NCBI GenBank assembly: GCA_965262725.1
Contig: OZ253555.1
Span: 128,001 to 192,000 of the forward strand
Direction: 5' to 3'
DNA from: Dehalococcoidia bacterium
Lineage (GTDB): Bacteria; Chloroflexota; Dehalococcoidia; UBA2979
DNA: 64,000 nt
Positions 1 through 20,278 of the stretch are shown here, one piece after another. The notes under the pieces were generated by a model. It was not told where the DNA came from. It was given only the letters and a program-made list of their open reading frames with translations, and made no database searches. Position 1 is the stretch's first letter; each line of letters begins with the position of its first letter. The position numbers and the translations under genes are program-made.

Positions 1-118
1 CTCACCCGCGCCCTCGTTCTCGATGAGGATGGGGTCTCGCCGGTCAGACGCCTGTGCCCGTAGCGGGTCGAGCGCCACGGGGAGGCCGGCCCCTCCGTCT
101 CGAATGTGTCCTGCGGGG

Positions 119-1192
119 TCAGCGGAGCGCCGATGCGACCTGAGACGCCGCCTCATGCTGCATCCCGGGGAGCACGTGCGCGTAGATCGCGTACGTGATC
201 GCCGAGCTGGCATGTCCGAGCTGCGCGCTGATGCTGGTGATCGGCACTCCTTGCATCGCCATGAGCGAGGCGCACGTGTGTCGCAGCGTGTGGAAGGTGA
301 CGCCGTCGAGTTCGGCCTCGCGGAGGAGCGACTGGAATGCGCGGCGCATGTTGCTGGGCCTCCAGTGGGTCCCGATGCCCGAGGGGAAGACGAGATCCCG
401 CTCCCTCCAGCGTGCACCGAGCCGGAGGCGGTGCGCGCCCTGCTCGGCGCGATGCCGGCGGAGGACGCGCACGGCCTCAGCGGAGAGGGCCACGGCCCGC
501 CGCGAGCGGTGCGTCTTGGGCTCCATCTCGACGATGCCGCGTCCGGCGAATTCGCGGATCGTGCGCCTCACGCGCACCTCGCGGGACGGCAGGTCGATGT
601 CTGCCCAGCGCAGGGCGAGCAGCTCCCCGCGCCGCGCGCCCGTCTCGAGCGCGACGTAGAGGAGCGCATATATAGATGTATCGGCGGCGACCTCGAGCAG
701 CCGCCGGGCCTCGGCCACGCTCAGGACGCGCATCTCGCGCCGCCGCGTCGTCGGCGGGCGGGCCGCTTCTGCGGGGTTGACCTCGATCAGGCGCAGCTCG
801 GTCGCGGTCTGGAGCGCCGACTGGAGCTCCCGGTGCAGGCGGCGCACCGTATTCGGCGAGCGGCCCGATTCGAGCAGGCGCGTCATCAGCGCATCGACGT
901 CGACGGGTTGGAGTTCGCTCAGCCTCCGCGCACCGAGCGCCGGTTTGAAGTGGAGTTCGACGTCCCGGCGGTAGAGGTCGAAGGTGGATTCCTTCACACG
1001 CAGGGCCTGTCGCGCGAGCCAGAGATCGAGATAGGCGCCGACCAGCAGCGGGTCGCCCGTCGCACCGGTGCCGCCGGGAGGGGCGGAACTCCGGGGGCGG
1101 CGCACGCGGTCGACGCCCCGGGTGATGCCTCGTCGCCGCCGGGTCCGCGTGTGCCGGCTCGGCGGGCGTTCCTCCTCCGGGCGCTTCGTCAT
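119..1192 (-). CDS. Tyrosine recombinase/integrase (phage-integrase type); N-terminal arm-binding domain not recognisable
   Basis: Catalytic motifs TGARRGE (R), PKT (K), FHTLRHT (HxxR), QLGHAS (H), IYAH (Y). Core-binding segment YLDLWL..VKESTFDLY..RLSELQP. SD GGAGGGAG upstream of ATG 1192. Confidence 0.92.
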   Translation of the reverse strand: MTKRPEEERPPSRHTRTRRRRGITRGVDRVRRPRSSAPPGGTGATGDPLLVGAYLDLWLARQALRVKESTFDLYRRDVELHFKPALGARRLSELQPVDVDALMTRLLESGRSPNTVRRLHRELQSALQTATELRLIEVNPAEAARPPTTRRREMRVLSVAEARRLLEVAADTSIYALLYVALETGARRGELLALRWADIDLPSREVRVRRTIREFAGRGIVEMEPKTHRSRRAVALSAEAVRVLRRHRAEQGAHRLRLGARWRERDLVFPSGIGTHWRPSNMRRAFQSLLREAELDGVTFHTLRHTCASLMAMQGVPITSISAQLGHASSAITYAIYAHVLPGMQHEAASQVASALR

Positions 1193-1208
1193 CGCTCCCT
1201 CCGTGCGT

Positions 1209-4200: not shown

Positions 4201-4673
4201 GCGTAGCTGGAGAGCCGGCAGAGGTTGGCATATCCCTGCCGGGTCTCGGCGAGAAGCGTGAGGTGCGAGCGCACCTCTGTGCCCGCATCACGCGCCGCCG
4301 CGGGTTCGGAGACGGTCAGCTCCAGCCCGGTGATGGGCCTGATCCCGGCCGCGCGCGCCGCATGCGCGAACTCCATCGCCCCGAACATGCCGTCGTGGTC
4401 GGTCAGCGCGAGCGCCGCGTGGCCCTGCTCCGCGGCGCTGTGCACCAGCTCGTCCGGGCTCGAGGCGCCCTCCAGCAGCGAGTAGTAGCTGTGTGCGTGC
4501 AGCTCCACGTATGGGACGCCGCCCAGTGCCTCCTCCGGGATGGGCGGTGGGGAGCCGCGCGGCGTCCGGGGGACCGGCACCCCCGTCTCGATCTGCGCGC
4601 GCCGCCGCTCGAACTCGTCCCAGCGCTCCATGTAGCCGGGCTCTAGTTCCCGGCGCCCGCGTGCCACCGGCAT
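1209..4673 (-). CDS. dnaE2: Error-prone DNA polymerase III alpha subunit (DnaE2/ImuC)
   Basis: PHP motif YVELHAHSYYSLLEGASSP, GRGSSVASIVCYLIG, PDIDLDF, RHLSQHPGG, KIDFLALGML, FGFPKSH, C-terminal OB fold VVCRQRP. LexA box upstream and imuB nearby. Confidence 0.96.
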   Translation of the reverse strand: MPVARGRRELEPGYMERWDEFERRRAQIETGVPVPRTPRGSPPPIPEEALGGVPYVELHAHSYYSLLEGASSPDELVHSAAEQGHAALALTDHDGMFGAMEFAHAARAAGIRPITGLELTVSEPAAARDAGTEVRSHLTLLAETRQGYANLCRLSSYAFGLRETDPRAQEERRLDPVLPLAVLGRHAEGLIVLTGCRDGRIPSLVQAGRGSEAVAALERLIAWFGTNQVFVELQDNYVRGDRPRNEALVALAERAGVGVVGTGNVHYHARERHRLQDVLVAISRRATLDECHAERRPNAEFWLRSPQRQARRFARYHPQAAANTVRIAQRCRFDLTEDLGYRLPTPPLPEGTTPLLELERICRERLRERYRSPAVRSKAQAQLDEELRLIRMHDLAGFFLIYHEVFRLAREVAREVRGSGTARSRTQLPPGRGRGSSVASIVCYLIGLSHIDPIHHRLFIGRFLNEEMHSLPDIDLDFPRDIRAELIKRVHARWGRERTALVATFATYRPKSAIRDAGKALGLPEAELDRLARLAGPHDGADQIPEELARSPHFQGRAQARGWQQFSELAQQLEGIPRHLSQHPGGMVIASGPLIDCVPCQPAAMPGRYLCHWDKDSVSDARMVKIDFLALGMLSVVEEAVELIAAGRGRIVDLSRIDFRDQAVYDSICRGDTVGVFQIESRAQIAMLPRTQPRTLEDLAVQVSIVRPGPIVGGAVNPYVRRREQQRRDPRYRPAMPHECVRDVLEETLGVVIFQEQVLQVAQQMGGFSSGEAERFRRSMSRRHAREAMDTWRERFLAGAAERGVAHTVAERVFDNLLGFAEFGFPKSHGAAFALLAYQSSWLKQYYAPEFLCALFNHQPTGFYPPHVLTNDAKRHGVAVRRPDIDVSRAMCTIEQPADTESATGAIRIGLGYVQGLGPAWARRIEEERERAGRYRSLFDFVQRTGLGRRETARLIQAGAFDGFGLNRRELLWQLGLFSGGPAGGMAHTPSAQPTRRQLRLELPTAQDAVALTDFDDRERMALDYALLGLSPDSHPMRFLRESLGEGVASSRHLHVLPAGRPVEVAGLVVCRQRPLTARGIVFLLLEDEYGLMNILVRRELASAQRGVVRTAAFVRARGVLDERAGEQRTLVATGIEEIVPAEALRMPAGRSWI

Positions 4674-4706
4674 TCCTTTCCGCCGCGAACGGCGGCCGAG
4701 AGTAAC

Positions 4707-4720
4707 AGAACATCTGTTCC
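4707..4720 (-). promoter_or_regulatory. LexA (SOS) box AGAAC-ATCT-GTTCC in the dnaE2 promoter
   Basis: GAAC-N4-GTTC at 4708-4719. On the minus strand it lies in the spacer between TTGATC (-35) and TGT-TACTCT (extended -10). Confidence 0.85.
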
Positions 4721-5006
4721 AAGATCAACATACCGCCCGAACGAGCCCTGGCGGAGCAACGCCACCCTGTGAGCGCAGATTACCCATAGCATCACTGCTG
4801 GCCGGAGCCACCTATCAGATATCCGCCTCACGGCTCGGCCGCGAGCGCGGGAGCCCCGGCATGCAACGGTTACTGGATGGTGGCGGCGTGACGGACCAGG
4901 GAACGATCCGGCGTGAAGCCGCATATCTCTCGGCAGGATGGTGTTGGAGCAGCGTGAGACGCGACGCACGAGCTACCCCGGCCGACCGGCGGAGGGTGAG
5001 GGGCGT

Positions 5007-5564
5007 ATGACCGACGACGAGGCCATCCGGCGCTGTCAGGACGGAGACCATGACGCCTTTCGCCATCTTGTGGAGCGGTACAAGAACCCGCTCTACGGCA
5101 CCGCCTACGTGATGACCGGCAATGCCGCCCACGCCGAGGAGCACGTCCAGGAGGCGTTCCTGTCGGCCTGGCGCGGCATCCGTACCTTCCGGCGGGGCCT
5201 CCCGGTGAAGCCCTGGTTGATGCGGATCCTCGTGAACACCGTGCTCTCCCAGCAGCGGAGACGCACGCTGACGACGGTGCCGATCGAGGAGTCGCTGCTG
5301 CCGGGAACGACCCCCGGTCCGCAGGACTCAGTCGAGGCGAGCGAGAACCGCGAGGCCGTGCGTCAGGCCCTCGCCCGGCTCAGCCCCGAACACCGCCAGG
5401 TCGTCGTGCTGCGCTACTTCGCCGACCTGACGGTTCCACAGGTGGCCCGCTCCGCCGGGGTGCGGGAGGGCACAGTCAAGTCGCGGCTTCACCGTGCGCT
5501 CCGCCAGATGCGCGAGTTGCTGGAGCAGTCCGGCGTGATGGAGGTAGCCGGCAATGGCACCTAA
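5007..5564 (+). CDS. ECF RNA polymerase sigma factor
   Basis: AFRHLVERY, AEEHVQEAFLSAW, KPWLMRI, region 4 LSPEHRQVVVLRY..GTVKSRLHRA. Confidence 0.93.
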   Translation: MTDDEAIRRCQDGDHDAFRHLVERYKNPLYGTAYVMTGNAAHAEEHVQEAFLSAWRGIRTFRRGLPVKPWLMRILVNTVLSQQRRRTLTTVPIEESLLPGTTPGPQDSVEASENREAVRQALARLSPEHRQVVVLRYFADLTVPQVARSAGVREGTVKSRLHRALRQMRELLEQSGVMEVAGNGT

Positions 5565-7791
5565 CGACGCATTCGATCAGGAGATGGAGCGCCGCCTGAG
5601 AGAGCACTTCACCGAGGAGGCTTCCGAGCTGCGCGCGCCCGACGACCTCTGGGATCGACTGGAGGGGCAGCTGGGCGAGCAAGAGCCGCCGCGCCGCTTC
5701 GCGTTGCTGCGTGGCGGAGCCCTCGTCGGCGGGACGGCCTGGGTTCCGGCGGCGGCCGCGGCCGTCCTGGTTCTGGCCGCCGGGATGGGAGCCTGGCTCC
5801 TCACCGGTAACGGTGGCGGCGACGCTGCCCCGGTGGCCGCCGGCCGGCGGTTCGCCCCGGAAAACGTTGAGGCTTTGCGGGCTGCCTACGCCGTCGCGAC
5901 AGCTGCCGCCCAACTGGCCCCCGTCGCGGCGGCGCCCCTCATCGACCCGCTGGCCGCCCCTGCCGCGACGGCTGCACCCCGCGCGGCGGCTGCGCCCACC
6001 GCGGCGGCGCAGCCCCGCGCGACGGCTGCGCCCACCGCGGCGGCTGCGTCCGCGGCGGCGGTTGTGCCCCGCGCGACGGCTGCGCCCACCGCGACGGCTG
6101 CGCCCGTCGTGGCGGCTGCGCCCGCCGCGACGGCTGCCCCGGCTGCCCCGCCCGCCCCGGCGGCCCCGGTCGTCGCCGAGCCGATCGCCACCCCGGCCAG
6201 CGGCTCTGGCGGAACCGGCGGTGACGGCGCCGCCTCGGAGTCAGAAAGCGCAGCCGACGGGGGCTCGACGGTGTCAGCGCCGCCGGAGCCGCCCGCGACC
6301 GGTCCCGGCTCCAAGCATCCGCCTGGCCTCGATCACCCGCCCCAGCCCCAGCAGCCCGCGGCCACCACGTTCGAGGACTACGGCCGCACGCCGTTCGCGG
6401 AGACGTCGACCGATGCGATCTCCACGTTCAGCCTCGACACCGATCGCACGTCCTACTTCCTCGCCCTGAGCTGGGTTCGCAACGGCTACACCGTCGAGCC
6501 CGACTCCGTGCGGGCGGAGGAGTGGATTAACGCCTTCGACTACGGCTATGCGGCGCCGGGCGACGATCGCAGCTTCGCCGTCACGAGCGAGGTGGCGCGG
6601 CATCCGCTCGAGAGCGACCGGCACCTCGTGCGCATCGCTCTCCAGGCGCCGGAGCTCCGCGACGACACGCCCCTGAACGTGACGCTCGTGCTGGATGCAT
6701 CGGGCTCCATGAGCCAGGGGAACCGCGTCGCAATCGCCCGCGAGGCGGCGGAGACCCTCCGCCAGAGCCTCAGCTCCCGCGATCGCGTCGCCGTAGTGCA
6801 CTTCAGCCAGCGTGTGCTCGACGACTACACCGTCGAACACAGTGCACCCGACGATCAGGACGTCGTGTCGTCGATCAGCCGCCTGGTGCCGTCGGGCAGC
6901 ACGAACGTGCAGGCCGGGCTCAATCTCGGCGTCCGGCTCGCAGGCGCCGCCCGCCTCGAGCGGCCCGGGGCCTACAACTACATCATCCTGATGTCCGACG
7001 GCGTGGCGAACGTGGACGCGACGGATCCGTTCGCCATCCTCGAGTCGGCCCCGGATTCCGACAGCACGAACCCGCTCCGCCTGATCACGATCGGCGTGGG
7101 GATCGAGAACTACAATGACTTCCTGCTGGAGCAGCTGGCCCAGCACGGCAACGGCTGGTACCGCTACCTCGACGACGCCGCGCAGGCTCGCGCGACGTTC
7201 AGCCGCGAGAACTGGCTCGCGCTCTCCACGCCCTTCGCCGACCAGGCACGGGCCCAGGTGACGTGGGATCCCGCGATCGTTCAGGCCTGGCGCATCGTCG
7301 GCTACGAGAACCGCATCACGCCGGATCACACCTTCGAGCAGAACCGCAGGGAGTTCGCCGAGCTCCCCTCCGGGGCCGCCACGACGGTGCTCTACGAGCT
7401 CGTCCTCCACGAGGGCGCCGGCAACCGCTCCACCCGACTGGGAAACGTGGAGGTGCGCTGGGTGGACCCGGCCTCCGGGGCATCACGCAGCCAGAACGCC
7501 GACGTCCTCGGCGACGCGGGCACCTCGTTCGCTGCCGGCGAGCGCTACTTCAGGCTCGCGGCGATCGTGGGGCTCGCCGCCGATCGCTACAGCGCCCTTT
7601 CACCCCAGGTCGAGAACGCGGAGGTCGACTACGCCGGCATCCGGGGCGACCTCTCCGCCCTCGGGGCGGAGCTGAGCGCTCTTCAGGGGGTGCTCGGATC
7701 GCTCCAGTCCTACGCCGACTTCCGCTTCCTCCTGAACCGGCTCACGCAGGCTGCAGCAGAGCTGGCTCCCACGTCGGGCTACAGCCGGTGA
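5554..7791 (+). CDS. Anti-sigma-like membrane protein fused to an Ala/Pro linker and a YfbK-type vWA domain
   Basis: Overlaps the sigma gene end. N-terminus ERRLREHF..PDDLWDRLE, one TM helix, STFSLDTDRTSY, VRAEEWINAFDY, MIDAS LDASGSM, LMSDGVANV, WRIVGYENR. Confidence 0.85.
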   Translation: MAPNDAFDQEMERRLREHFTEEASELRAPDDLWDRLEGQLGEQEPPRRFALLRGGALVGGTAWVPAAAAAVLVLAAGMGAWLLTGNGGGDAAPVAAGRRFAPENVEALRAAYAVATAAAQLAPVAAAPLIDPLAAPAATAAPRAAAAPTAAAQPRATAAPTAAAASAAAVVPRATAAPTATAAPVVAAAPAATAAPAAPPAPAAPVVAEPIATPASGSGGTGGDGAASESESAADGGSTVSAPPEPPATGPGSKHPPGLDHPPQPQQPAATTFEDYGRTPFAETSTDAISTFSLDTDRTSYFLALSWVRNGYTVEPDSVRAEEWINAFDYGYAAPGDDRSFAVTSEVARHPLESDRHLVRIALQAPELRDDTPLNVTLVLDASGSMSQGNRVAIAREAAETLRQSLSSRDRVAVVHFSQRVLDDYTVEHSAPDDQDVVSSISRLVPSGSTNVQAGLNLGVRLAGAARLERPGAYNYIILMSDGVANVDATDPFAILESAPDSDSTNPLRLITIGVGIENYNDFLLEQLAQHGNGWYRYLDDAAQARATFSRENWLALSTPFADQARAQVTWDPAIVQAWRIVGYENRITPDHTFEQNRREFAELPSGAATTVLYELVLHEGAGNRSTRLGNVEVRWVDPASGASRSQNADVLGDAGTSFAAGERYFRLAAIVGLAADRYSALSPQVENAEVDYAGIRGDLSALGAELSALQGVLGSLQSYADFRFLLNRLTQAAAELAPTSGYSR
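5960..6140 (+). repeat. Imperfect coding repeats (PRATAAPTA-like) in the vWA protein linker
   Basis: Recurrent CGCG(A/G)CGGCTGCGCCCACCGCG units. Confidence 0.7.
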
Positions 7792-7799
7792 CGGGGCTC

Positions 7800-7968
7800 C
7801 GAGGGCCGTTACCGGCTGGCTCCCGCGTCCCGCCTGCACGAGGACGGGGATGCGCCGGTCGCGGCACCCCGTCAGCGCGATCAGCTCCTTCCCGTGTCAG
7901 GTGTCGCGCTTCCCGGCCGCGCGGCTCCGTCTCCCAGCGCTGGTAGCCGCGCCGTAGTTCTCGGCGCC
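7800..7968 (-). pseudogene. Decayed, internally deleted copy of the dnaE2 5' region
   Basis: 7800-7900 aligns with 4022-4122 (e.g. CCCGCCTGCACGAGG, GGGGATGCGCC, GTCGCGGCACCCCGTCAGC). 7919-7935 aligns with 4173-4189. 7943-7968 aligns with 4632-4657. Confidence 0.85.
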
Positions 7969-8074
7969 ACCGCTCGCCGCACGCGACGGGGCACGCGCAG
8001 TACCGCGTTACGCATTGCTAACCGGTCGCTGCTGAGGGTAGGCTGTGGAACACAGAATATGTGGAGCTGTGAAT

Positions 8075-8365
8075 ATGCGGAATATCACCGTGTCCGTCGA
8101 TGACGAGACCCATCGGCTCGCCCGCACCAAGGCGGCGGAACTGGACACATCGGTATCGGCTCTCGTGCGCGACTATCTCAGGCGTCTCGCCCGCGGGCAG
8201 GCAGTCGGAATCGGATCTGACCGCCACGTGGCTGAGACAGAACGCGAACGTCGGGGCAGGCTCCTGGCCGAAGCCGTCGAGGACATCACGAAGAACGGCG
8301 GCGGGTTGCATATGGCCGACAACCTGCCGAGGGACTCGCTCCACGACCGCCGTGCGCTTCGTTGA
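8075..8365 (+). CDS. Ribbon-helix-helix antitoxin (VapB-like)
   Basis: MRNITVSVDDETHRLARTKAAELDTSVSALVRDYL; overlaps the PIN toxin gene. Confidence 0.85.
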   Translation: MRNITVSVDDETHRLARTKAAELDTSVSALVRDYLRRLARGQAVGIGSDRHVAETERERRGRLLAEAVEDITKNGGGLHMADNLPRDSLHDRRALR

Positions 8366-8771
8366 CACCAACGTCTTGCTGTATGCGGTGAGCGCGCTGT
8401 CGGAGAACGCTGCCAAGCGCCGCCGCGCCCTCGCGCTCCTCGAGGAAGACGACCTGGCGATCTCGGTCCAGGTGCTTCAGGAGTTCTATCATCGGGCGAC
8501 GCGTCCCAGCCGCCCCGCGGCCATCACTCCCGAGCAGGCCCTGCGATTCATCGAGGCCATCGACAGCTTGCCGGTTCAGCCCATCACACTCGACACATTC
8601 CGCGCCGGCGTGGCCATCAGTCAGCGATTCGGATTGTCCTGCTGGGACGGTGCAATCCTCGCCGCCGCGCGCGCCATGGGCTGCGACGCGGTCTACTCGG
8701 AGGATATGAGCTCCGATCAGGACTACGGCGGCGTGAGGGTGCTCAACCCCTTCGTTGATCAGGAACACTGA
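8352..8771 (+). CDS. PIN-domain toxin (VapC-like)
   Basis: GTG start; FVDTNVLLYA, ISVQVLQEFY, LSCWDGAILAAA, YSEDM, VLNPF. Confidence 0.92.
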   Translation: MRFVDTNVLLYAVSALSENAAKRRRALALLEEDDLAISVQVLQEFYHRATRPSRPAAITPEQALRFIEAIDSLPVQPITLDTFRAGVAISQRFGLSCWDGAILAAARAMGCDAVYSEDMSSDQDYGGVRVLNPFVDQEH

Positions 8772-8814
8772 GCAACGCTCACGCCATGCGCATTGCGTTC
8801 TGGACACGTGTAGT

Positions 8815-8828
8815 AGAACAAAAGTTCT
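8815..8828 (+). promoter_or_regulatory. LexA (SOS) box AGAAC-AAAA-GTTCT upstream of imuB
   Basis: Perfect AGAAC-N4-GTTCT directly before an extended -10 (TGA-TATGAT, TATGAT at 8831-8836). Confidence 0.9.
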
Positions 8829-8863
8829 GATATGATGCCGCCCCTTCTGGCGGGGGGTAGCAG

Positions 8864-10060
8864 ATGTCGAGCTCGTATATCGCGTGCCTGCTGGTGCCGG
8901 CGCCCGCGCTCGGCGTCGAGGTCGCGCGCCGCCCGGAGCTGCGGGGCCGGCCCGTCGCCATCGCCAGCGCCTGCGGTCAGCGCGTGGCGGAGGCGAGTCC
9001 GGCCGCCGCACGGCGTGGCGTGCGTCCGGGACAGCGAGTCAGCGAGGCCGTGGCCTGGTGTCCCGGGCTCGTGGTTCTCGCGGAGCGGCCCGCGCGCGTG
9101 CGTCGCGCCGCTTCGCAGCTCGTGGATGCGGTCGCCACGGTCAGCCCGCTTGTCGAGGAGGCAGCTCCGGGCGAGGTCTACGCCGACCTGCGCGGCCTCG
9201 ATGGTCTCTACCCGGAGGTGGATGCGCTTGCGCAGGCGCTGCTGGGGCCGGCTCCGCAAGCGCTGGGCGCGAGGCTGGGGGTGGCCGGCAGCCGCTTCAC
9301 GGCGCGGGCGGCCGCCTCCGTCGCACCCCCCGGGGGCTGGTTGCGGGTTGCCGAGGGAGAGGCGCGGGCCTTTCTCGATGCGTTGCCGATCGGATTGCTC
9401 CCGCTCGAGGGGGCCGATCGGGACTGGCTCGCCGTGCTCGGCCTCGTCACGCTCGGTGACCTGGCGGCTCTGCCGCGGCACGCCGTCGAGGCGCAGCTCG
9501 GGCCGGCGGGGACGCGGGCCTGGCTCGCCGCACGGGGCGAGGATGCGTCGCCGCTGATTCCTCGGACCCCCCGGGAGCGCGTGCGGGAGAGGGCGCAGTC
9601 CGAGCCGCCGCTCATCAGCCGCGAGGCGGTGCTGATGACGTTCGAACAACTTCTGGGACGCGCACTCAGCCGCCCGCCTGCCCGCGGCCGCCTGGTGCGC
9701 TCCGTCCACCTGGGCGCCACGACCGGGGACGAACGTCTCTGGGAACGCACGCGCGTGCTGACCGAGCCGACCGGCGACCGCTCGCGTCTCTGGACCGCGG
9801 TCCGCCCCGCCATCGAGACGGCGGCATTCGGCGGGCCGGTGGCGGAACTGGCTCTGGAGCTAGACGGGCTGACCGTCGAGCGCGGCCTCCAGGGGAGGCT
9901 GCTGCACGACCTGGGCGTCCGTCGCCGCGAGCGGCTCGATGAGATGGCGCACCACCTCCAGCTGCGCTACAGCCGGGCGGCGCTGCGCCGCGTCGTCGCC
10001 CTGGTGCCGGACAGCCGCATCCCCGAGCGCCGCTACGCCCTCGCGGATTACGACCCGTGA
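8864..10060 (+). CDS. imuB: Catalytically inactive Y-family polymerase (ImuB)
   Basis: RPELRGRPVAI, AARRGVRPG, SPLVEEAAPGEVYADL (acidic catalytic residues lost), LGLVTLGDLAALP, clamp-like QGRLL, SRIPERR. Confidence 0.88.
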   Translation: MSSSYIACLLVPAPALGVEVARRPELRGRPVAIASACGQRVAEASPAAARRGVRPGQRVSEAVAWCPGLVVLAERPARVRRAASQLVDAVATVSPLVEEAAPGEVYADLRGLDGLYPEVDALAQALLGPAPQALGARLGVAGSRFTARAAASVAPPGGWLRVAEGEARAFLDALPIGLLPLEGADRDWLAVLGLVTLGDLAALPRHAVEAQLGPAGTRAWLAARGEDASPLIPRTPRERVRERAQSEPPLISREAVLMTFEQLLGRALSRPPARGRLVRSVHLGATTGDERLWERTRVLTEPTGDRSRLWTAVRPAIETAAFGGPVAELALELDGLTVERGLQGRLLHDLGVRRRERLDEMAHHLQLRYSRAALRRVVALVPDSRIPERRYALADYDP

Positions 10061-10356
10061 GCGGCGGGGGCGGCGCGCTCAGCCCGCTCGGGCTGCCCCG
10101 GCCGATCGAGGTTCGCCTCGGTGTCGATGGCGAGCCGCGCTCGCTGCGGAGGTGGCGGCGGCACGGCGCGCCGGGCTCGCCGCTCGCTATTCGGCGGGTC
10201 GAGGAGGTGTGGCGCATCGCGGAGGAGTGGTGGCGCGCGGCGCCGCTGCACCGCACCTACTACCGCGTCCTGGTGGATGGCGGCGGCATGCTCACGTTGT
10301 TCCACGACGACACGCAGCCGCCGGGCGAGGGCTGGTACGAGCAGCGTGACGGGTGA
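10057..10356 (+). CDS. DUF6504-like small protein (resembles an ImuB C-terminal domain)
   Basis: PRPIEV..EEVWRIAEEWWR..RTYYRV..LTLFHD..WYEQ; GTGA overlap with imuB. Confidence 0.8.
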   Translation: MSGGGGALSPLGLPRPIEVRLGVDGEPRSLRRWRRHGAPGSPLAIRRVEEVWRIAEEWWRAAPLHRTYYRVLVDGGGMLTLFHDDTQPPGEGWYEQRDG

Positions 10357-15468: not shown

Positions 15469-15738
15469 GTGTCCGACGTCCGCATCGTCGCCAAGGCGAT
15501 GGATGATCTCGCCGATGACTGGCACTGGGTGCTGCTGCACGGCGCGGAGGAACTCGAGCCGCGGCTCTACTATGTGCAGCGGGTCGGGACCGTCTGCGGG
15601 CTGCTGATCGCCGCGGCGCCGCAGCAGGTGCGCCTCTTCGACATGGGCGCGCCGGCCGAGCCGACCTGCCCCCGCTGCCTGGAGCACGGCGGAGGCTCCG
15701 TGCTGAGCGAGGCCGAGGCGGTCGCGGCGCTCGCCTGA
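15469..15738 (+). CDS. Small hypothetical protein, possible Zn-binding
   Basis: GGAG SD before GTG; WH..TVCG..TCPRC pattern. Confidence 0.55.
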   Translation: MSDVRIVAKAMDDLADDWHWVLLHGAEELEPRLYYVQRVGTVCGLLIAAAPQQVRLFDMGAPAEPTCPRCLEHGGGSVLSEAEAVAALA

Positions 15739-15910
15739 GAGGCTGCACAACTCGGCTGGGCGACTGGGCGGTGCTCGCCGAGGCGGTGCTGGGTGCTGAG
15801 GTCTCGCCCAGGTCGGCGTCGACTAGGACGACCTCACGAGGCTGCCAGAAGCTTGTCGTCTCAGTTGGATCGACCGGGCCGCGGAACCCTACCTTTTTGT
15901 GCAGGGCGCT

Positions 15911-17041
15911 CTAGGACTTCCTCGCGATGGCCTCATCAGCAGTCGGCGCGAGGAACTGGAGCATCGTACCCTCAGGGTACGTTCTTGATCTTCTTCGTGT
16001 ACCTTGCAGTATCTCGATCTCCCCACGGACCTCCATGGGCTTCAAAGTACTGCTCTTTAAGTGACCCGAATGGAAGTCCGTTGCGTCGGACTTTACGAAT
16101 TCCTCGATATCTTCAATGTTCTGCCATCCTTTGGATGCGAACTGACTACGCAGCTCCATCGCAAGACGACTAAGGTCGACAATGCTTTCGCCAAAAGTGA
16201 GTTGACCGTGCTGTCCACCTCGGAACTTGAAGTCTCCGAACGGGTCAGCTTTCCAAATTGCCTGCTTCATCTTGTCGCAACCGTCTAGGCTATTGGTTCC
16301 GAAAAAGATGGTGTATATTAGTCTACTACCGCTATAGAGTTCGAAGTGAACAACGAACCTGGCACCGTTGCTCTTGAGCTGATTCTTATACAAGTCATAG
16401 AAAAACTCCTTCCTCTCTACGCTGTCCGTTAGGTCGATTCCGTCTCGCCATTGAGTACATCCAAAGAGCTCGTCAAGATGCCTGCTGAACTCAGGCCGTG
16501 TCTTGAATCGGTTGATCGACTCGTACATAAACGAGATGTAGACTTCTGATCTCCGGTTACGCAATATTCTTGATATGGTCCTCATGGGCGTGCCGGAAAC
16601 ACCAAATGGATCAATCATCACAAATGCCGGTGCCAGATGGGTTCGTTGCTCTTCGAGTTCGTCGAGAACATCTGTGAGAGTCTCATCAAAGGTGTCGTTG
16701 ATGACTTCGTAGTGGCACTGTGGAGGCAATTGACCCTTAAGATCGCCCAGAACCCGTTCAAGGTGCATGCTTCGGGCCGCGTCGCGCTCGATGAACATGT
16801 AATTCACTTCGCTTTGGAACTGATTCCGGGCGCGATGGTTGATCAACGCATTTAGAGCAATGACCGGTGAGCCGAGCTCGCCACCTGAGTACTTGCCTGG
16901 CCCGGCGAACGCGTCGATGAAGAGGATGCGGCCATTCCATTTGCTCATGATTGGCAACCAAGCCTGCATGTAACTCTCGAGTACGAGGTGTTTGCCTCTG
17001 GTCTGCGGCTCGAGTGGCCAAGTGGTACCGCTAACGGACAT
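15911..17041 (-). CDS. tcmP: Three-Cys-motif partner protein TcmP (SAM-methyltransferase-like)
   Basis: TRGKHLVLESYMQAW, FIDAFAGPG, GSPVIAL, MFIE, FVMIDPFG, GCDKMKQAIWK. Overlaps the DUF5131 gene and is visibly AT-richer than its flanks. Confidence 0.88.
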   Translation of the reverse strand: MSVSGTTWPLEPQTRGKHLVLESYMQAWLPIMSKWNGRILFIDAFAGPGKYSGGELGSPVIALNALINHRARNQFQSEVNYMFIERDAARSMHLERVLGDLKGQLPPQCHYEVINDTFDETLTDVLDELEEQRTHLAPAFVMIDPFGVSGTPMRTISRILRNRRSEVYISFMYESINRFKTRPEFSRHLDELFGCTQWRDGIDLTDSVERKEFFYDLYKNQLKSNGARFVVHFELYSGSRLIYTIFFGTNSLDGCDKMKQAIWKADPFGDFKFRGGQHGQLTFGESIVDLSRLAMELRSQFASKGWQNIEDIEEFVKSDATDFHSGHLKSSTLKPMEVRGEIEILQGTRRRSRTYPEGTMLQFLAPTADEAIARKS

Positions 17042-17804
17042 GCTGGCCGCTGATTGCAGTCGCAGGATATTCACGCCATTGACGTCCGTCTAAGACTGCT
17101 TCGTCTCCCGACCGCTTGCCGCGCCTACCCCCTAGCTGCTTGAGGAAGAATGCGACACCTGCGTCGGCTGATTGGTCACGCAGGCCCCTTGCCCAGTCCA
17201 AGTCCATCGCTCTGGCGCCGCGTCCGCTTTCGCCGCCAGCAATAACCCAATGGATGTCTCCTCGACGAAGCCAAGTGCCGAGGTCGATGGTGCCGAGCAG
17301 CGGTTCGGCCGAGACGAAGCGTACCTTTGCTGGCAGCCGCGCCAGCACCGTTATTCGTGGTGCGTACTTCTGGTTCTCCACCGAAGTGCCAATCCAGACG
17401 CCTGCTGGCCACACCCCGCCATATCGGCTCTGGTTGCGGTCCCACCATCCGACCGCTCGCCCCGGACGCTTTGTCAAGACTTGGAATATGTGCCCGCGCG
17501 CTGCCGCTGCGATGCTCATCACATCAAAGACCTGCGTCACGAATTCATAGGGAACACGCGGATGAAAGACGTCGGACATACTGTTGACGAAGATGCGGCG
17601 GGGCTTTCTCCACCGCAAGGGGGCGTCTAGACGCTCAGGCAGCAGTTGCACTTCCTGCGGTGCAGTCTCGTACCCGCGCACGCCCATCGCGGTTAGTCGC
17701 GGGTACATCGAGTACATGTAGCAATGGTCGCAGCCGGGAGACACCCGCGTGCAACCCGTGACCGGATTCCAAGTCTCATCCGTCCATTCAATCGTCGATG
17801 GCAT
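17031..17804 (-). CDS. DUF5131 / phage Gp37-Gp68 family radical-SAM-like protein
   Basis: IEWTDETWNPVTGCTRVSPGCDHCY (CX6CX2C), FVNSMSDVFH, FQVLTKRP, RFVSAEPLLG, WVIAGGESG, FFLKQLGG. Confidence 0.95.
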   Translation of the reverse strand: MPSTIEWTDETWNPVTGCTRVSPGCDHCYMYSMYPRLTAMGVRGYETAPQEVQLLPERLDAPLRWRKPRRIFVNSMSDVFHPRVPYEFVTQVFDVMSIAAAARGHIFQVLTKRPGRAVGWWDRNQSRYGGVWPAGVWIGTSVENQKYAPRITVLARLPAKVRFVSAEPLLGTIDLGTWLRRGDIHWVIAGGESGRGARAMDLDWARGLRDQSADAGVAFFLKQLGGRRGKRSGDEAVLDGRQWREYPATAISGQHVR

Positions 17805-17821
17805 CGCAGAACGCCTCCATA

Positions 17822-17835
17822 CGAACTTGTGTTCT
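17822..17835 (-). promoter_or_regulatory. LexA (SOS) box CGAAC-TTGT-GTTCT upstream of DUF5131-tcmP
   Basis: GAAC-N4-GTTC at 17823-17834, immediately 5' of the SD (GGAGG, 17814-17818). A minus-strand TTGACA lies at 17851-17856. Confidence 0.7.
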
Positions 17836-18117
17836 CATACTAGCGCCTCCTGTCAATCCTCTGCCGAAGCTCGACAGCCCTCCGTAGCGTTCGCGCGCGA
17901 CCGCGCGAGTCGCAGCGCTGTCTGGCGCGCGGGACCCTCTCGGATTCGCCAGCGCTGCTCAGCGGCTCGTCCCGCGAGCCGAGTTTGATGATTGTGCCGT
18001 CCGAGGAAGTGGAGCGCGTCGACTTGCCTCCAGCACGCAGGGGCCCACCCATTCGCCCCGGTCTTATGTCCGCGACACCGATATGCGGTGATGAGGAGTG
18101 GCATCGCTGCGCACTAG

Positions 18118-19510
18118 CAGGGTCGGGAAAAAGGCCCCCTTTGGCGCGGCCACGGAGCGAATCACCGCCAAGAGGGCGTATGCGGCGTCATTTCGGGGCC
18201 GATTCTGGCCCCCTCCGGGGCTCTCTCAGCCCGTCCGGGCGCCCCGGGACCTACTCCGGGCGCACTACGCCCGTGACAGCGCGGCGTCGATATTGGCCAC
18301 GCGCACCAGGTTGTACGCGGCAGCGCCCATCTCCATCCAGAAACCGTTGACCTGTTCGCCGATGTAGCGGAGCTTGCGCCCGCCCCCCACGGTCTTCAGC
18401 CACCCGAAGCTCTCCTCCACCATCTTGCGCCGGCGCTGACTCACCTCGTAGCCGGGCGTCTGCGCCACCTCCTCGGGGATGGCGCTGTGCTTCGCTCGCC
18501 GTGCCACGTGCGGCACGACCCCGAGTTCGCACAGCCCCTCCACGAAGTGCTTCGCGTCGTATCCCTTGTCGGCGCCCAGCGTCGCCCCCGGTGTCAGGCT
18601 GCGCTCGGCCATGGCCAGCGCCGCATCCCGCTCCGCCCGCCCGTGCGCCGTCGTGAGCTCGACATCGACGATGAGCCCGTTGCGGTTCTCCGTCATCACA
18701 TGCCCGATGTAGCTCGGGCGCGCCGCCTGCCCGTTCCCCTTCCGGTACAGGTGCGCGCCGGGATCGGTCGTGCTGACGTGGGTGTCCCGGTGCCGGCGCT
18801 CGCCGCGGAAGTCGACGTCCGGATTGCGGCCCGCAGGCTTGTCCCCGTCCTGCTCGTCGCGTGACCGGTAGCTCTTGTGCGACGCCCACGCCTCGAGCTG
18901 CGACCCGTCGACCGTGAAGTGCTCCTCGGACAGCAGGTTCCGCTCCCTCGCCTCCCTCACGACTTCCTCGAAGAACCCCCGGGCGATGTCGCCGTCAAGG
19001 AGCCGGGAGCGGTTCTTCGAGAACGTGGAGCGGTCGAAGGAACCGGGGTCTCCCGGGAGGTCGAGGAACCACTTGAACGCCATGTCGGACCGCAGCCGCT
19101 CGCAGAACTGGCTCTCGCTACGAATCGAGAAGAAGGCGATGAGGAGTGTCGACTTGAGCAGCGTCTCGGGCGGAATCGACGGTCGCCCGGACTCGCTGTA
19201 GAGACCGTCGAAGCGCGGGGAGAGATTGGCGAGCGCCCGGTCGACGATGGGCTTGATGCGTCGGAGCGGGTGGTCGCTGGGGACGAACATCTCCGGGCAG
19301 GTGAGAGTGGCGCGGCCCTGGTCCTCGCTCTGTCCTCGCATCGATATCCTCCCTCGTGGGGGTCCCTCTTGTATGATCGTTAGTATACTCGTCTTATCAG
19401 TTACAGTCGACCACTACCTGGGGCTTCTGACAGCTACCGGGGGCGTTTGTTGCACCCGCGGGGCACCGCCGGCCATGCTCCGGGCACCCAGGGAGAAAAT
19501 CACAACCCTG
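18118..19510 (-). mobile_element. IS5-family insertion sequence with CTAG target duplication
   Basis: CTAG at 18114-18117 and 19511-19514; imperfect IRs CAGGGTCGGGA / CAGGGTTGTGA. Confidence 0.8.
18265..19341 (-). CDS. IS5-family DDE transposase
   Basis: VPSDHPLR, GRPSIPPE, STFSKNR, HFTVDGS, TLGADKGYD, EESFGWLK, AAAYNLVR. Confidence 0.95.
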   Translation of the reverse strand: MRGQSEDQGRATLTCPEMFVPSDHPLRRIKPIVDRALANLSPRFDGLYSESGRPSIPPETLLKSTLLIAFFSIRSESQFCERLRSDMAFKWFLDLPGDPGSFDRSTFSKNRSRLLDGDIARGFFEEVVREARERNLLSEEHFTVDGSQLEAWASHKSYRSRDEQDGDKPAGRNPDVDFRGERRHRDTHVSTTDPGAHLYRKGNGQAARPSYIGHVMTENRNGLIVDVELTTAHGRAERDAALAMAERSLTPGATLGADKGYDAKHFVEGLCELGVVPHVARRAKHSAIPEEVAQTPGYEVSQRRRKMVEESFGWLKTVGGGRKLRYIGEQVNGFWMEMGAAAYNLVRVANIDAALSRA

Positions 19511-20278
19511 CTAGGGATCGCCGAGTTCGCGCGCCGCGACGGTGATCGCGTTCGCGCTCGCGGGCATCCCGGCGTACGGCCCGACCTGCAGCAAGAGCTC
19601 GCCCATCTCCTCGCGCGTGATCCCGAGTCCGGTGGCTCCCCGCACGAAGGCGGCGAGCTGAGCCTCCTGCCCCAGCGCCGCGAGCGACGCGACGCTGCAG
19701 ATCACGCGTGAGCGCGCGTCCAGACCCGGCCGCTGGAAGATCCCGCCGAAGGCATAGCGTAGTGTCCAGGTCCGTAGCTCCGGTTGCAGCGCCGCCGCGG
19801 CGACGAGGTAGGGCGGCGGGGCGGCGCTCTCGCCGAGGAGTTCGGAGCGGAACTCCACGCCGCGCGCCTCCGCCTCCGCGAGCGAGCGCTCCGGCACCGA
19901 GCGCGGGGCCGCTTCGACGCCACGTTCGGCGAAGACCTTGTGCGCGACGCCCAGCGATCCGGCGGCGGTCGGCATCCCGGCGTGCACCGAGCAGTGGACG
20001 AGGATCTCCTCCACCTCCTCCGGCGCGAGGCCGATGGTGAGTGCGGCGCCGACGTAGCGGCGCAGCTGCTCGAGGCGCTGGAGTGAGCTGAGCGCGGAGA
20101 GTGTCGCCAGCATCCGCTCCCTGAGCCCCAGGCCGGGGCGCGCCCAGATCGCTCCGAAGATCGCCTCGGTCGAGTGTTCCTCGAGCCCCGGCACGGCGTG
20201 AAGCGCCGCGGGGGCTGCGAGCCCCAGCGTCGCGCGCATCGCCCGCCCGGCCCGGATCACCTCCTCGCGCGTCGGCAT
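19511..20278 (-). CDS. Carboxymuconolactone decarboxylase/AhpD-like protein with two domains
   Basis: FGAIWARPGLGLRER and FGGIFQRPGLDARSR repeats; YAGMPA. Confidence 0.88.
   Translation of the reverse strand: MPTREEVIRAGRAMRATLGLAAPAALHAVPGLEEHSTEAIFGAIWARPGLGLRERMLATLSALSSLQRLEQLRRYVGAALTIGLAPEEVEEILVHCSVHAGMPTAAGSLGVAHKVFAERGVEAAPRSVPERSLAEAEARGVEFRSELLGESAAPPPYLVAAAALQPELRTWTLRYAFGGIFQRPGLDARSRVICSVASLAALGQEAQLAAFVRGATGLGITREEMGELLLQVGPYAGMPASANAITVAARELGDP

What the first reader, a model, noticed from the sequence alone, without database searches (positions are those of the whole stretch)
15911..17856. LexA-boxed DUF5131 (radical-SAM-like) + TcmP (methyltransferase-like) two-gene system: candidate uncharacterised DNA-damage, DNA-modification or defence module
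Seen: two overlapping genes in an AT-richer island next to an IS5. Gene 1 has CX6CX2C. Gene 2 has SAM-binding-like IDAFAGPG/FIE and a DPFG motif reminiscent of amino-methyltransferase motif IV, plus an extra C-terminal domain. A GAAC-TTGT-GTTC box sits directly 5' of the SD and has the same form as the boxes at dnaE2 and imuB. Rough expectation is under one chance hit of this 8-base pattern in the whole window. Known: PF07505 and TIGR04474 (TcmP) co-occur regularly, and to my knowledge their function is unresolved. Inference: SOS induction points to radical chemistry on DNA or nucleotides (lesion repair akin to spore photoproduct lyase, base modification, or damage-triggered anti-phage activity).
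Basis: partly seen in the sequence, partly recalled or inferred. Interest (0 to 1): 0.75.

Follow-up and report, generated by a model that had tools for sequence, protein, structure and literature searches.

The report
SOS-controlled radical-SAM and methyltransferase gene pair
A recently acquired two-gene module, made of a radical-SAM-type enzyme and a methyltransferase-like partner, sits behind a DNA-damage (LexA) operator that recurs upstream of its relatives in many other genomes, so this uncharacterised candidate phage-defence pair is probably switched on by DNA damage.

Summary
On the minus strand lie DUF5131 (17804-17031, PF07505, CX6CX2C) and TcmP (17041/17074-15911, TIGR04474). They overlap in a low-GC island beside an IS5. 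An exact GAAC-N4-GTTC box (17823-17834) lies 18 nt before the DUF5131 start codon. The window holds only two other exact boxes, and both precede dnaE2 and imuB.

New here:
- In 77 related loci the same box (at most 1 mismatch) lies within 120 nt upstream in 25. The rate for 438 control genes is 5% (Fisher p 7e-11), and spacing controls give 4-8.
- A second LexA-type operator, GAAC-N7-GAAC, is enriched in other loci.
- A Rhodococcus plasmid copy carries a perfect TCGAAC-N4-GTTCGA.

TcmP models as a class I methyltransferase (nearest TYW4, RlmJ, Trm1) with a wHTH-like tail. PADLOC already lists the pair as the unvalidated defence candidate PDC-M30. Relatives sit between Type IIG restriction and HKD-SNF2 helicase genes, and in prophage immunity cassettes.

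Best reading: a mobile, LexA-repressed two-enzyme module that modifies nucleic-acid bases, probably for defence. DNA repair is the main rival. The chemistry is not shown. No paper on its function or its SOS control was found.

The parts
17823..17834 (-). LexA-type operator GAAC-N4-GTTC (gene strand GAACACAAGTTC; extended GAGAACACAAGTTCGT)
   Evidence: Exact match; 3 in the window against 0.40 expected. It lies 18 nt before the ATG. The same motif is enriched upstream of homologues.
17814..17818 (-). Shine-Dalgarno GGAGG, 9 nt before the DUF5131 ATG
   Evidence: Sequence read.
17851..17856 (-). TTGACA hexamer upstream of the box; promoter role uncertain
   Evidence: Sequence. The strict sigma-70 scan found no promoter in 15700-18300.
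17031..17804 (-). DUF5131 / Gp37-Gp68 family protein, radical-SAM superfamily subgroup with CX6CX2C (C18, C25, C28)
   Evidence: PF07505 E 1.1e-83. PADLOC PDC-M41B/M30B E 1e-82 and 5.5e-79. phrog_2045 E 1.6e-85. Cysteines invariant in 28 of 28 homologues. Literature classification.
15911..17041 (-). TcmP: class I SAM-methyltransferase-like domain plus a C-terminal wHTH-like domain. The alternative upstream start is GTG 17074.
   Evidence: TIGR04474 E 6.7e-55. PDC-M30A E 1.3e-54. Start inferred from alignment A1. AF2 model has pLDDT 82. Foldseek hits TYW4, RlmJ and Trm1.
15750..18113 (.). Low-GC island carrying the two genes (approximate limits), taken as recent horizontal acquisition
   Evidence: GC profile. 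GC3 is 0.61-0.67 against 0.80-0.98 for the ORFs kept as host-like. The closest relatives, at 73-85% identity, are in other Chloroflexota genomes.
18114..19514 (-). Flanking IS5-family element; the transposase is 19341..18265
   Evidence: NF033581 E 2.9e-65. 15-nt inverted repeats, 87% complementary.
4708..4719 (.). Comparator LexA-type box upstream of dnaE2 (1209-4673, minus strand)
8816..8827 (.). Comparator LexA-type box upstream of the imuB-like gene (8864-10060, plus strand)

Best explanation
The locus is a horizontally acquired two-gene operon that LexA represses and DNA damage switches on.

Tier 1 (about 0.8). LexA binds the GAAC-N4-GTTC operator that sits just upstream of the ribosome-binding site. 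RecA-stimulated LexA self-cleavage after DNA damage then derepresses DUF5131 and the translationally coupled TcmP.

Tier 2 (inferred, about 0.45). The two enzymes act in sequence on a nucleic-acid base, most likely in DNA. TcmP binds through its wHTH-like tail and uses its Rossmann SAM site and D-P-F-G motif on an exocyclic amine. DUF5131 uses a [4Fe-4S]/SAM-derived radical on the same base or nucleotide. The resulting modification serves the mobile element or its host as an inducible anti-phage or anti-invader function. It would be a second line of defence that is fired once DNA damage or DNA ends signal infection.

What is shown: gene identities, operon structure, foreign origin, the operator, and its recurrence in relatives. 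What is inferred: LexA binding, the substrate, the chemistry, and the benefit.
For: Operator.
- There are 3 exact boxes in the window against 0.40 expected, and all 3 lie 18-37 nt upstream of start codons. Two of them precede dnaE2 and imuB, which I recall as canonical LexA targets.
- GAAC-N4-GTTC is the published LexA motif of Gram-positive bacteria, and GTTC-N7-GTTC is that of Alphaproteobacteria (passages in PMC3323433 and PMC8565304).
- The host is a Chloroflexota bacterium: the closest GyrA hits that carry a source name are 'Chloroflexi bacterium' at 92% and 'Dehalococcoidia bacterium' at 75%.

Comparative test.
- 79 of 80 related loci carry DUF5131 beside TcmP: 69 as DUF5131>TcmP, 7 as TcmP>DUF5131, 3 on opposite strands.
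- Of the 77 loci with 120 nt of upstream sequence, 25 have the box with at most 1 mismatch. The expectation is 3.6 from the loci themselves; 500 shuffles gave mean 2.9 and maximum 9.
- 22 of 438 other genes with an upstream gap of at least 50 nt have such a box (odds ratio 9.1, p 7e-11).
- 16 of 45 upstream-sequence clusters have the box (p 2.6e-10).
- Controls with other spacings or orientation gave IR3 4, IR5 4, IR6 4 and everted 8.
- GAAC-N7-GAAC occurs exactly in 7 of 77 against 0.4 expected. It is found in Longimicrobiales loci and in close Chloroflexota relatives of the window's genes.
- The window's own 309-nt upstream region has no blastn similarity to any locus, so its box is not simply inherited sequence.
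- A Rhodococcus plasmid copy has TCGAACAAGGGTTCGA at -32 of its DUF5131 gene.

Enzymes.
- DUF5131 is a radical-SAM subgroup with CX6CX2C, in the same megacluster as spore photoproduct lyase.
- TcmP has a class I methyltransferase fold. Its best matches are TYW4 (E 9e-7), RlmJ (TM 0.51 on the target) and Trm1. The SAM-loop and DPFG residues are invariant.
- The secondary-structure order of residues 300-375 of the 387-aa ORF numbering looks like a wHTH. PF22560 gives weak hits in 6 of 30 homologues and is carried by 22-43% of the nearest Atlas clusters.

Defence and mobile context.
- Both proteins hit PADLOC PDC-M30A/B.
- In 8 loci the order is Type IIG REase-MTase (E 3e-116) > DUF5131 > TcmP > HKD+SNF2 helicase, and AbiEi-like genes lie in 4 loci. 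Two of these 8 loci (L004, L037) carry exact boxes.
- In the temperate Gordonia phages ThankyouJordi and Fairfaxidum the pair lies between the integrase and the immunity repressor.
- In S. meliloti, TcmP is listed in one putative transcription unit with the Hna defence helicase (passage in PMC12445080).
Against: - No experiment shows LexA binding, induction, Fe-S or SAM chemistry, a substrate, or phage resistance.
- PDC-M30 is only a candidate system. That it is unvalidated is recalled from PADLOC's naming, not seen in a call.
- The AF2 model of DUF5131 is mediocre (pLDDT 70.7; the Cys-motif region is below 50). Its Foldseek matches are generic TIM barrels (best E 6.8e-4), and no radical-SAM enzyme appears among the rows shown.
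- Pfam did not report PF04055 for DUF5131.
- About half of the loci have neither operator at the thresholds used. All 7 rows of the gammaproteobacterial-type clade lack one.
- Of the 11 actinobacterial plasmid loci I examined (out of 31 plasmid records with a match), only 1 has an individually convincing box. The one phage locus I scanned (L081) has none near the genes.
- The best structural neighbours of TcmP are RNA-modifying enzymes, so the substrate could be RNA.
- No canonical sigma-70 promoter was found around the box.
- LexA-controlled genes on mobile elements can also be damage-tolerance genes. The example I have in mind, umuDC/rumAB-type cassettes, is recalled.
Confidence: 0.45

Rival explanations
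1. SOS-induced DNA-damage reversal or tolerance. DUF5131 would be a spore-photoproduct-lyase-like radical enzyme that reverses a lesion without oxygen or light. TcmP would be its lesion-recognising, base-flipping or co-catalytic partner. The module would spread on mobile elements in the same way as plasmid-borne mutagenesis cassettes.
For: The LexA operator is conserved and is shared with dnaE2 and imuB in the window. DUF5131 lies in the same radical-SAM megacluster as spore photoproduct lyase and MJ0683-like proteins. SplB-type radical SAM genes and a UDG-linked two-gene cassette are reported as LexA-regulated in several phyla (passages in PMC8565304 and PMC3765255). A radical SAM gene is induced 20-fold by mitomycin C and bound by LexA in S. 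venezuelae, although its family was not checked (passage in PMC9380542).
Against: The neighbourhoods are those of defence islands and prophage immunity cassettes, not repair loci. Some genomes carry several copies, and the genes have a foreign composition. A conserved, apparently active methyltransferase site has no obvious role in lesion reversal. The CX6CX2C motif and the absence of an SPL or Radical_SAM Pfam hit mean the protein is not an SPL family member.
Confidence: 0.25
2. RNA (tRNA or rRNA) modification module. TcmP would methylate a base in RNA as RlmJ, Trm1 and Trm5 do, and DUF5131 would elaborate it. This would resemble the radical-SAM plus methyltransferase steps of wyosine biosynthesis (an analogy recalled from knowledge). 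The effect would be to change translation during stress or infection.
For: The best Foldseek matches of TcmP are all RNA-modifying enzymes: TYW4, RlmJ, Trm1 and Trm5a. One prophage annotates its DUF5131 homologue as 'RNA methyltransferase', which is the depositor's label only.
Against: TM-scores are modest (0.34-0.51) and sequence identity is 10-13%. The wHTH-like tail, the LexA control, and the phage contexts among DNA methyltransferase, RecT, RepA and RuvC genes all point to DNA.
Confidence: 0.12
3. Selfish addiction, toxin-antidote or restriction-modification-like pair. DUF5131 would damage unmodified DNA and TcmP would protect it. LexA control would be a feature of the mobile element's life cycle rather than of host benefit.
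For: The pair is strictly linked (79 of 80 loci). It has a mobile distribution and neighbours such as zeta toxin, PIN and AbiEi. In Gordonia phages the methyltransferase is co-oriented with the immunity repressor while DUF5131 is transcribed convergently.
Against: In 69 of 79 loci the putative toxin is encoded first and is translationally coupled to the putative antidote under one repressible promoter. That is not the usual layout for an antidote that must always be present. No nuclease domain was found.
Confidence: 0.1
4. The box in this window is a chance or non-functional match, and the operon is not SOS-regulated in this host.
For: It is a single 8-specified-base match. No canonical promoter was found. 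One-mismatch boxes in the window are at chance level. Many homologous loci lack a box.
Against: There are 3 exact hits against 0.40 expected, and all lie at promoters, two of them of genes I recall as canonical LexA targets. The box lies in non-homologous upstream DNA yet at the same place as in relatives. The enrichment is specific to this spacing.
Confidence: 0.08

Closest known systems
PADLOC candidate system PDC-M30 (and PDC-M41): TcmP-like A subunit plus DUF5131 B subunit
   Same: Both proteins hit the models strongly (PDC-M30A E 1.3e-54; PDC-M30B E 5.5e-79; PDC-M41B E 1e-82), and the genes are adjacent.
   Different: PDC entries are candidates with no mechanism; that status is recalled. 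Nothing in the library or in the papers I searched mentions LexA control.
Spore photoproduct lyase and SplB/MJ0683-like radical SAM DNA repair proteins
   Same: They belong to the same RadicalSAM.org megacluster 5. SplB-type genes are reported as LexA-regulated in several phyla.
   Different: DUF5131 has CX6CX2C rather than CX3CX2C and gives no SPL or Radical_SAM Pfam hit. It has an obligatory methyltransferase-like partner and a mobile, defence-island context.
LexA-regulated two-gene cassette of uracil-DNA-glycosylase-like and radical SAM genes (COG1573-COG4277)
   Same: It is a two-gene cassette reported as SOS-regulated (passage in PMC8565304). That COG4277 is the radical-SAM member is recalled. 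DUF4130's link to SplB-like radical SAM and UDG genes is from PMC3765255.
   Different: The partner there is a UDG or DUF4130 protein, not a methyltransferase. No sequence relationship was tested here.
RlmJ (23S rRNA m6A2030), Trm1 (tRNA m2,2G26) and TYW4 methyltransferases
   Same: TcmP shares the class I Rossmann fold with them; Foldseek probability 1.0, E from 9e-7 to 5e-5. TcmP has a D-P-F-G motif where amino-methyltransferases have (D/N/S)PP(Y/F). That Trm1 itself carries DPFG is recalled and was not checked.
   Different: Identity is 10-13% and TM-scores are 0.34-0.51. Profile searches find no sequence relative in the PDB. TcmP has an added wHTH-like tail and an obligatory radical-SAM partner.
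LexA-controlled cargo of mobile elements (plasmid or ICE umuDC/rumAB cassettes, colicins, SOS-induced toxins); recalled
   Same: Foreign genes placed under the host's LexA operator.
   Different: The proteins are unrelated. The comparison concerns regulatory logic only.

Membership tests
PF07505 / DUF5131 (RadicalSAM.org Megacluster-5-2) | HMM match above the curated cut-off over the full length | tested here: met
   280.9 bits against 28.9; residues 3-247 on profile positions 2-243 of 243.
PF07505 / DUF5131 (RadicalSAM.org Megacluster-5-2) | CX6CX2C cysteine triad | tested here: met
   C18, C25 and C28 are present and invariant in 28 of 28 homologues. The motif is stated for Megacluster-5-2 in PMC9477430.
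Radical SAM superfamily | Partial TIM-barrel radical-SAM fold | tested here: inconclusive
   The AF2 model has pLDDT 70.7. Foldseek gives only weak generic TIM-barrel matches, and no radical-SAM enzyme is among the rows shown.
Radical SAM superfamily | [4Fe-4S] binding and reductive SAM cleavage | not testable with these tools
   Needs anaerobic reconstitution and a 5'-deoxyadenosine assay.
TIGR04474 TcmP | HMM match above the cut-off, and adjacency to a PF07505 gene | tested here: met
   186.8 bits against 53. The genes overlap by 11 nt. The pairing holds in 79 of 80 related loci.
Class I SAM-dependent methyltransferases | Rossmann methyltransferase fold with a glycine-rich SAM loop and a motif IV | tested here: met
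   Foldseek probability 1.0 to many methyltransferases. FAGPG and DPFG are invariant. Catalysis was not tested.
PADLOC PDC-M30 | Both component HMMs present and adjacent | tested here: met
PADLOC PDC-M30 | Protection against phage | not testable with these tools
   It is a candidate only. No paper with a test was found.
LexA (SOS) regulon | Operator matching the host's LexA motif in the promoter region | tested here: met
   An exact GAAC-N4-GTTC lies 18 nt from the ATG, and the same motif precedes dnaE2 and imuB.
LexA (SOS) regulon | Operator conserved upstream of orthologues | tested here: met
   25 of 77 loci against 22 of 438 controls. Spacing controls gave 4-8. 16 of 45 sequence clusters carry the box.
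LexA (SOS) regulon | LexA binding and damage-dependent induction | not testable with these tools
   Needs EMSA, ChIP or RNA-seq.
Spore photoproduct lyase / SplB | CX3CX2C motif and an SPL-type HMM match | tested here: not met
   The motif is CX6CX2C. No Radical_SAM or SPL Pfam or NCBIfam hit was reported. The PDB profile search gave no SPL match.
Restriction-modification system | A methyltransferase paired with an endonuclease domain | tested here: not met
   No nuclease family was found in either protein.

The most novel reading that the evidence does not exclude
DUF5131-TcmP would be a new kind of SOS-triggered DNA-chemistry system. An N-methyltransferase and a CX6CX2C radical SAM enzyme would together write a so far unknown base modification into DNA when LexA is cleaved, or erase an unknown lesion from it. 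Hosts in at least three phyla would have repeatedly rewired the module onto their own LexA operator type: a palindrome in Chloroflexota and Actinomycetota, and a direct repeat in Longimicrobiales. That repeated rewiring would mean damage-coupled expression is essential to its function.
Probability: 0.3. Interest if true: 0.85.

Novelty: new member of a known kind. Interest (0 to 1): 0.62.

Why it matters
DUF5131 is a large radical-SAM subgroup with no known reaction, and TcmP has no Pfam family. The pair is common on phages, plasmids and defence islands. A conserved damage-responsive operator gives the first physiological handle on it: when it is expressed, and therefore how to assay it. If the product is a new DNA modification or an oxygen-independent repair reaction, it would add a new chemistry to the SOS response and to phage-host conflict. 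The same data also suggest what the LexA motif of Longimicrobiales may be.

Tried and rejected
- Complex prediction on DUF5131 with TcmP, using alignments A2 and A1, returned no answer (0.14 against a mark of 0.32). It counts neither for nor against binding.
- PDB sequence-profile searches found nothing meaningful. A2 gave 3 chance-level hits with E >= 0.14, and A1 gave none.
- The BFVD fold search of TcmP gave only generic methyltransferases.
- The DUF5131 fold search gave only weak TIM-barrel matches.
- The strict sigma-70 scan found no promoter in 15700-18300. I could not assign -35 and -10 elements around the box.
- blastn of the window's upstream and downstream flanks against the 80 loci found no similarity.
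- Literature searches. 'DUF5131' returned 1 paper, a classification only. 'TcmP', 'three-Cys-motif partner', 'PF07505' and 'TIGR04474' returned 2 relevant papers, both listings only. 'PDC-M30', 'PDC-M41' and 'Gp37Gp68' returned 7 papers, which I saw only in the search listing. 'GMT-wHTH' and 'PF22560' returned 0. 'Dehalococcoides ethenogenes' with 'LexA' and 'GAAC' returned 0.
- The claim that Dehalococcoides LexA uses the Gram-positive box is therefore recalled and was not seen.
- CIRCE/HrcA was considered for the GAGTGCTA-containing boxes and rejected because the spacing does not fit (by eye).
- A gamma-type CTGT-N8-ACAG box was looked for by eye only in the six Gamma/Proteobacteria upstream regions printed, and none was seen.
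Full report
**What is there.** The minus strand carries two genes in a low-GC island.
- Gene 1 (17804..17031, 257 aa) is a full-length DUF5131/Gp37-Gp68 protein (PF07505, E 1.1e-83). Its cysteines C18, C25 and C28 are spaced CX6CX2C and are invariant in 28 of 28 aligned homologues.
- Gene 2 is a TcmP protein (TIGR04474, 186.8 bits against a cut-off of 53) with no Pfam family. The ORF begins at GTG 17074. Alignment with 29 homologues places the start at M12, which is ATG 17041, so the two genes overlap by 11 nt around the DUF5131 stop.
- GC falls to 0.47-0.63 across the genes, against 0.70-0.76 outside. GC3 is 0.67 and 0.61, against 0.80-0.98 for the ORFs kept as host-like.
- An IS5-family element lies 310 nt upstream (transposase 19341..18265; inverted repeats 18114-18128 and 19500-19514).
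- The host is a high-GC Chloroflexota bacterium. The closest GyrA hits that carry a source name are 'Chloroflexi bacterium' (92%) and 'Dehalococcoidia bacterium' (75%).
- The nearest relatives of the two genes are in other Chloroflexota genomes (DUF5131 up to 85% identity, TcmP up to 74%). This points to recent transfer within the phylum from a lower-GC lineage.

**The operator in the window.** GAACTTGTGTTC lies at 17823-17834. It is 4 nt upstream of GGAGG and 18 nt from the ATG.
- GAAC-N4-GTTC occurs exactly 3 times in the 64 kb window, against 0.40 expected.
- The other two copies lie 35 nt upstream of a 1154-aa DnaE-type polymerase and 37 nt upstream of a Y-family ImuB-like gene. That these two genes are typical LexA targets is recalled.
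- One-mismatch copies in the window are at chance level (17 against 14.2).
- GAAC-N4-GTTC is the published LexA motif of Gram-positive bacteria (passage in PMC3323433). That Dehalococcoides shares this motif is recalled; my search for the paper found nothing.
- A strict sigma-70 scan found no promoter in the region.

**Comparative test of the operator.** One scan of species-representative genomes with the TcmP alignment returned 80 loci. They come from Dehalococcoidia and other Chloroflexota, Caldilineaceae, Longimicrobiales and other Gemmatimonadota, a few Pseudomonadota, and one Acidobacteriota.
- DUF5131 lies beside TcmP in 79 of 80 loci: 69 upstream on the same strand, 7 downstream, 3 on the opposite strand. 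L026 has none.
- Three loci were dropped from the operator count. L026 has no DUF5131, and L044 and L068 lie at contig ends. That left 77.
- Within 120 nt upstream of the first gene, 25 of 77 loci have the box with at most one mismatch. The rate in the loci as a whole predicts 3.6. In 500 shuffles the mean was 2.9 and the maximum 9.
- Among other genes in the same loci with an upstream gap of at least 50 nt, 22 of 438 have such a box (odds ratio 9.1, Fisher p 7e-11).
- When the upstream regions are clustered by similarity, 16 of 45 clusters carry the box (binomial p 2.6e-10). The signal is therefore not a single inherited sequence.
- The same half-sites at other spacings or orientation give 4 (N3), 4 (N5), 4 (N6) and 8 (everted).
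- Several further loci have two-mismatch versions of the same shape. An example is AGAAC-N4-GYGC running into TATAAT-like hexamers.
- The window's own 309-nt upstream region has no detectable similarity to any of the 80 loci.

**A second operator type.** The direct repeat GAAC-N7-GAAC occurs exactly in 7 of 77 upstream regions, against 0.4 expected. With one mismatch it occurs in 25 of 77, against 7.5 expected. The N6 and N8 controls give 5 and 7.
- It appears as CGAAC(A/G)(A/G)AAACCGAA(Y/W) in 8 of the 11 Gemmatimonadota loci printed. It appears on the other strand in L006, L011, L012, L017 and L065, which are among the closest relatives of the window's genes.
- GTTC-N7-GTTC is the published LexA motif of Alphaproteobacteria (passages in PMC3323433 and PMC8565304).
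- I could not check whether it is the LexA motif of these hosts.
- On a quick maximum-likelihood tree of TcmP, well-supported branches force at least 9 changes of the palindrome label and at least 4 of the direct-repeat label. This was the quick tree, with SH-aLRT support only; the careful search did not finish.
- Part of that label turnover is a threshold effect.

**Loci without an operator.**
- All 7 rows of the clade that holds the gammaproteobacterial loci have no operator.
- Four loci carry a different palindrome, TCTACGGTG-N3-CACCGTAGA.
- Of 31 plasmid records with a TcmP match, I examined 11.
  - One, Rhodococcus sp. USK13 pUSK13_1, has a perfect 16-nt TCGAACAAGGGTTCGA at -32 of its DUF5131 gene.
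  - One Micromonospora plasmid has a one-mismatch box at -43.
  - Four have only distal one-mismatch matches, which are within chance for a 200-nt window.
  - Five have none.
- The one phage locus I scanned (L081) had no box near the genes.

**The proteins.**
- RadicalSAM.org lists DUF5131 as Megacluster-5-2, beside spore photoproduct lyase (5-3) and MJ0683-like proteins (5-1). It states that 5-2 has a CX6CX2C motif (passages in PMC9477430).
- My AF2 model of DUF5131 is only moderate (pLDDT 70.7). Its fold matches are weak, generic TIM barrels, so the fold evidence is inconclusive.
- The TcmP model is good (pLDDT 82). Its best PDB matches are TYW4, RlmJ, Trm1 and Trm5a (E from 9e-7 to 1e-4, TM 0.34-0.51, identity 10-13%).
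- The SAM-loop residues of TcmP (FIDAFAGPG), the acidic residue after strand 2 (E96) and D155-P-F-G158 after strand 4 are invariant or nearly invariant. The site therefore looks active and resembles that of amino-methyltransferases.
- Residues 300-375 of the 387-aa ORF numbering have a helix-helix-helix-strand-strand order that looks like a winged helix. PF22560 (GMT-like wHTH) is weakly hit by 6 of 30 homologues. It is carried by 22-43% of members of the nearest Atlas clusters.
- Neither protein has a sequence relative in the PDB.

**Context in relatives.**
- PADLOC-DB holds models for exactly this pair, PDC-M30A/B and PDC-M41A/B.
- Beyond the pair the neighbourhoods vary. The most frequent third family occurs in 12 of 80 loci, and that cluster looks like opposite-strand ORFs over the pair.
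- In 8 loci the order is Type IIG restriction-methylase (PADLOC E 3e-116) > DUF5131 > TcmP > HKD+SNF2 helicase (E 7e-42). AbiEi-like genes lie in 4 loci. Two of these 8 loci (L004, L037) have exact LexA-type boxes directly before DUF5131.
- In phages, DUF5131 occurs in 180 records and TcmP in 10, all Gordonia phages.
- In ThankyouJordi and Fairfaxidum the TcmP-like methyltransferase follows the immunity repressor on the same strand. DUF5131 converges on it, next to a metalloprotease and the integrase.
- In mycobacteriophage TChen and prophage prophiT36-2a, a lone DUF5131 sits among replication and recombination genes and near a large DNA methyltransferase.
- On plasmids the neighbours include zeta toxin, PIN, ImmA/IrrE and a large DEAD/DEAH helicase.
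- In S. meliloti, TcmP is listed in one putative transcription unit with the Hna defence helicase (passage and table in PMC12445080).

**Interpretation.** I hold the regulatory claim at about 0.8: a LexA-repressed, damage-induced operon. For function, the common thread is a radical-SAM enzyme coupled to a nucleic-acid-type methyltransferase. The pair is carried by mobile elements, often sits in defence islands or prophage immunity regions, and in many lineages is wired to the SOS signal.
- I favour an inducible DNA-base-modifying module with a defensive or element-protective role (about 0.45 for the whole chain).
- SOS-linked lesion repair or tolerance is the main rival (0.25). It draws on the kinship with spore photoproduct lyase and on published LexA control of SplB-type radical SAM genes.
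- RNA modification (0.12), an addiction-type pair (0.10) and a non-functional box (0.08) remain possible.

**Novelty.** The locus is an ordinary member of a catalogued but uncharacterised pair. I found no paper that assigns it a function or links it to LexA. The searches and their counts are listed under Tried and rejected. Subscription-only papers, bioRxiv supplements and the PADLOC documentation were not visible to me and could hold relevant data.

Noticed in passing
L002, L003, L004, L010, L011, L012, L037, L065 (about 1100-10350 in each); L025 and L026 have the helicase only: A recurrent four-gene order: Type IIG REase-MTase (about 1340 aa) > DUF5131 > TcmP > HKD(PLD)+SNF2 helicase (about 1080 aa, PADLOC C3a139/DrmD-like). 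In 5 of the 9 loci that carry the helicase, it starts within about 25 nt of the TcmP stop or overlaps it. It may be a third operon member or the pair's effector.
   Followed up: partly
L039-L072 Longimicrobiales/Gemmatimonadota loci, about -60 to -100 from the DUF5131 start; L006, L011, L012, L017, L065 at -32: A conserved direct repeat CGAAC(A/G)(A/G)AAACCGAA, of GAAC-N7-GAAC type. It may reveal the LexA motif of Longimicrobiales, or a promoter carried over from a donor with a direct-repeat LexA box.
   Followed up: partly
L002, L003, L008, L010, about -45 to -20 from the DUF5131 start: A different 9-3-9 palindrome, TCTACGGTG-N3-CACCGTAGA, replaces the LexA-type box. The regulator is unknown.
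   Followed up: no
window 1-10060: The mutagenesis genes are split. dnaE2 (1209-4673, minus strand) and the imuB-like gene (8864-10060, plus strand) each have their own LexA-type box. They are separated by an ECF-type sigma factor (4938-5564), a vWA protein (5554-7791) and a PIN-domain gene (8100-8771). A tyrosine integrase (119-1192, minus strand) abuts dnaE2. No imuA-like Pfam hit was seen in the ORFs I scanned.
   Followed up: partly
window 59911-62103: Two further transposase genes lie side by side: a DDE_3/IS630-like gene (59911-61053) and an IS5-like gene (61093-62103).
   Followed up: no
L081 (Gordonia phage ThankyouJordi) and L095 (Fairfaxidum): The TcmP-like methyltransferase is co-oriented with, and directly follows, the immunity repressor. 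DUF5131 converges on it, beside a metalloprotease and the integrase. This layout is typical of lysogen-expressed genes.
   Followed up: partly
L082 (Rhodococcus sp. USK13 pUSK13_1): Two divergent TcmP paralogues lie next to one DUF5131 gene. A zeta-toxin family gene and an HTH gene lie beside them.
   Followed up: no
L018/L019, L014/L033, L038/L076, L077: Some genomes hold two copies of the pair. L018 and L019 are identical in TcmP and lie on one contig. L077 has a second DUF5131 about 5.5 kb downstream.
   Followed up: no
summary (phage collection): Two phage records match DUF5131 at 90-95% identity but were not among the rows listed. I did not look at them.
   Followed up: no
PMC9380542, regulon table (passage seen): The S. 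venezuelae LexA regulon includes a 'Radical SAM protein' (vnz_31145) that is induced 20-fold by mitomycin C. I did not determine its family.
   Followed up: no
L092 (Mycobacterium sp. SMC-8 plasmid) and the S. meliloti SMa2245/SMa2243 pair (PMC12445080): TcmP lies next to very large DEAD/DEAH (Hna-type) helicase genes in unrelated hosts. This echoes the HKD-SNF2 neighbour seen in Chloroflexota.
   Followed up: partly
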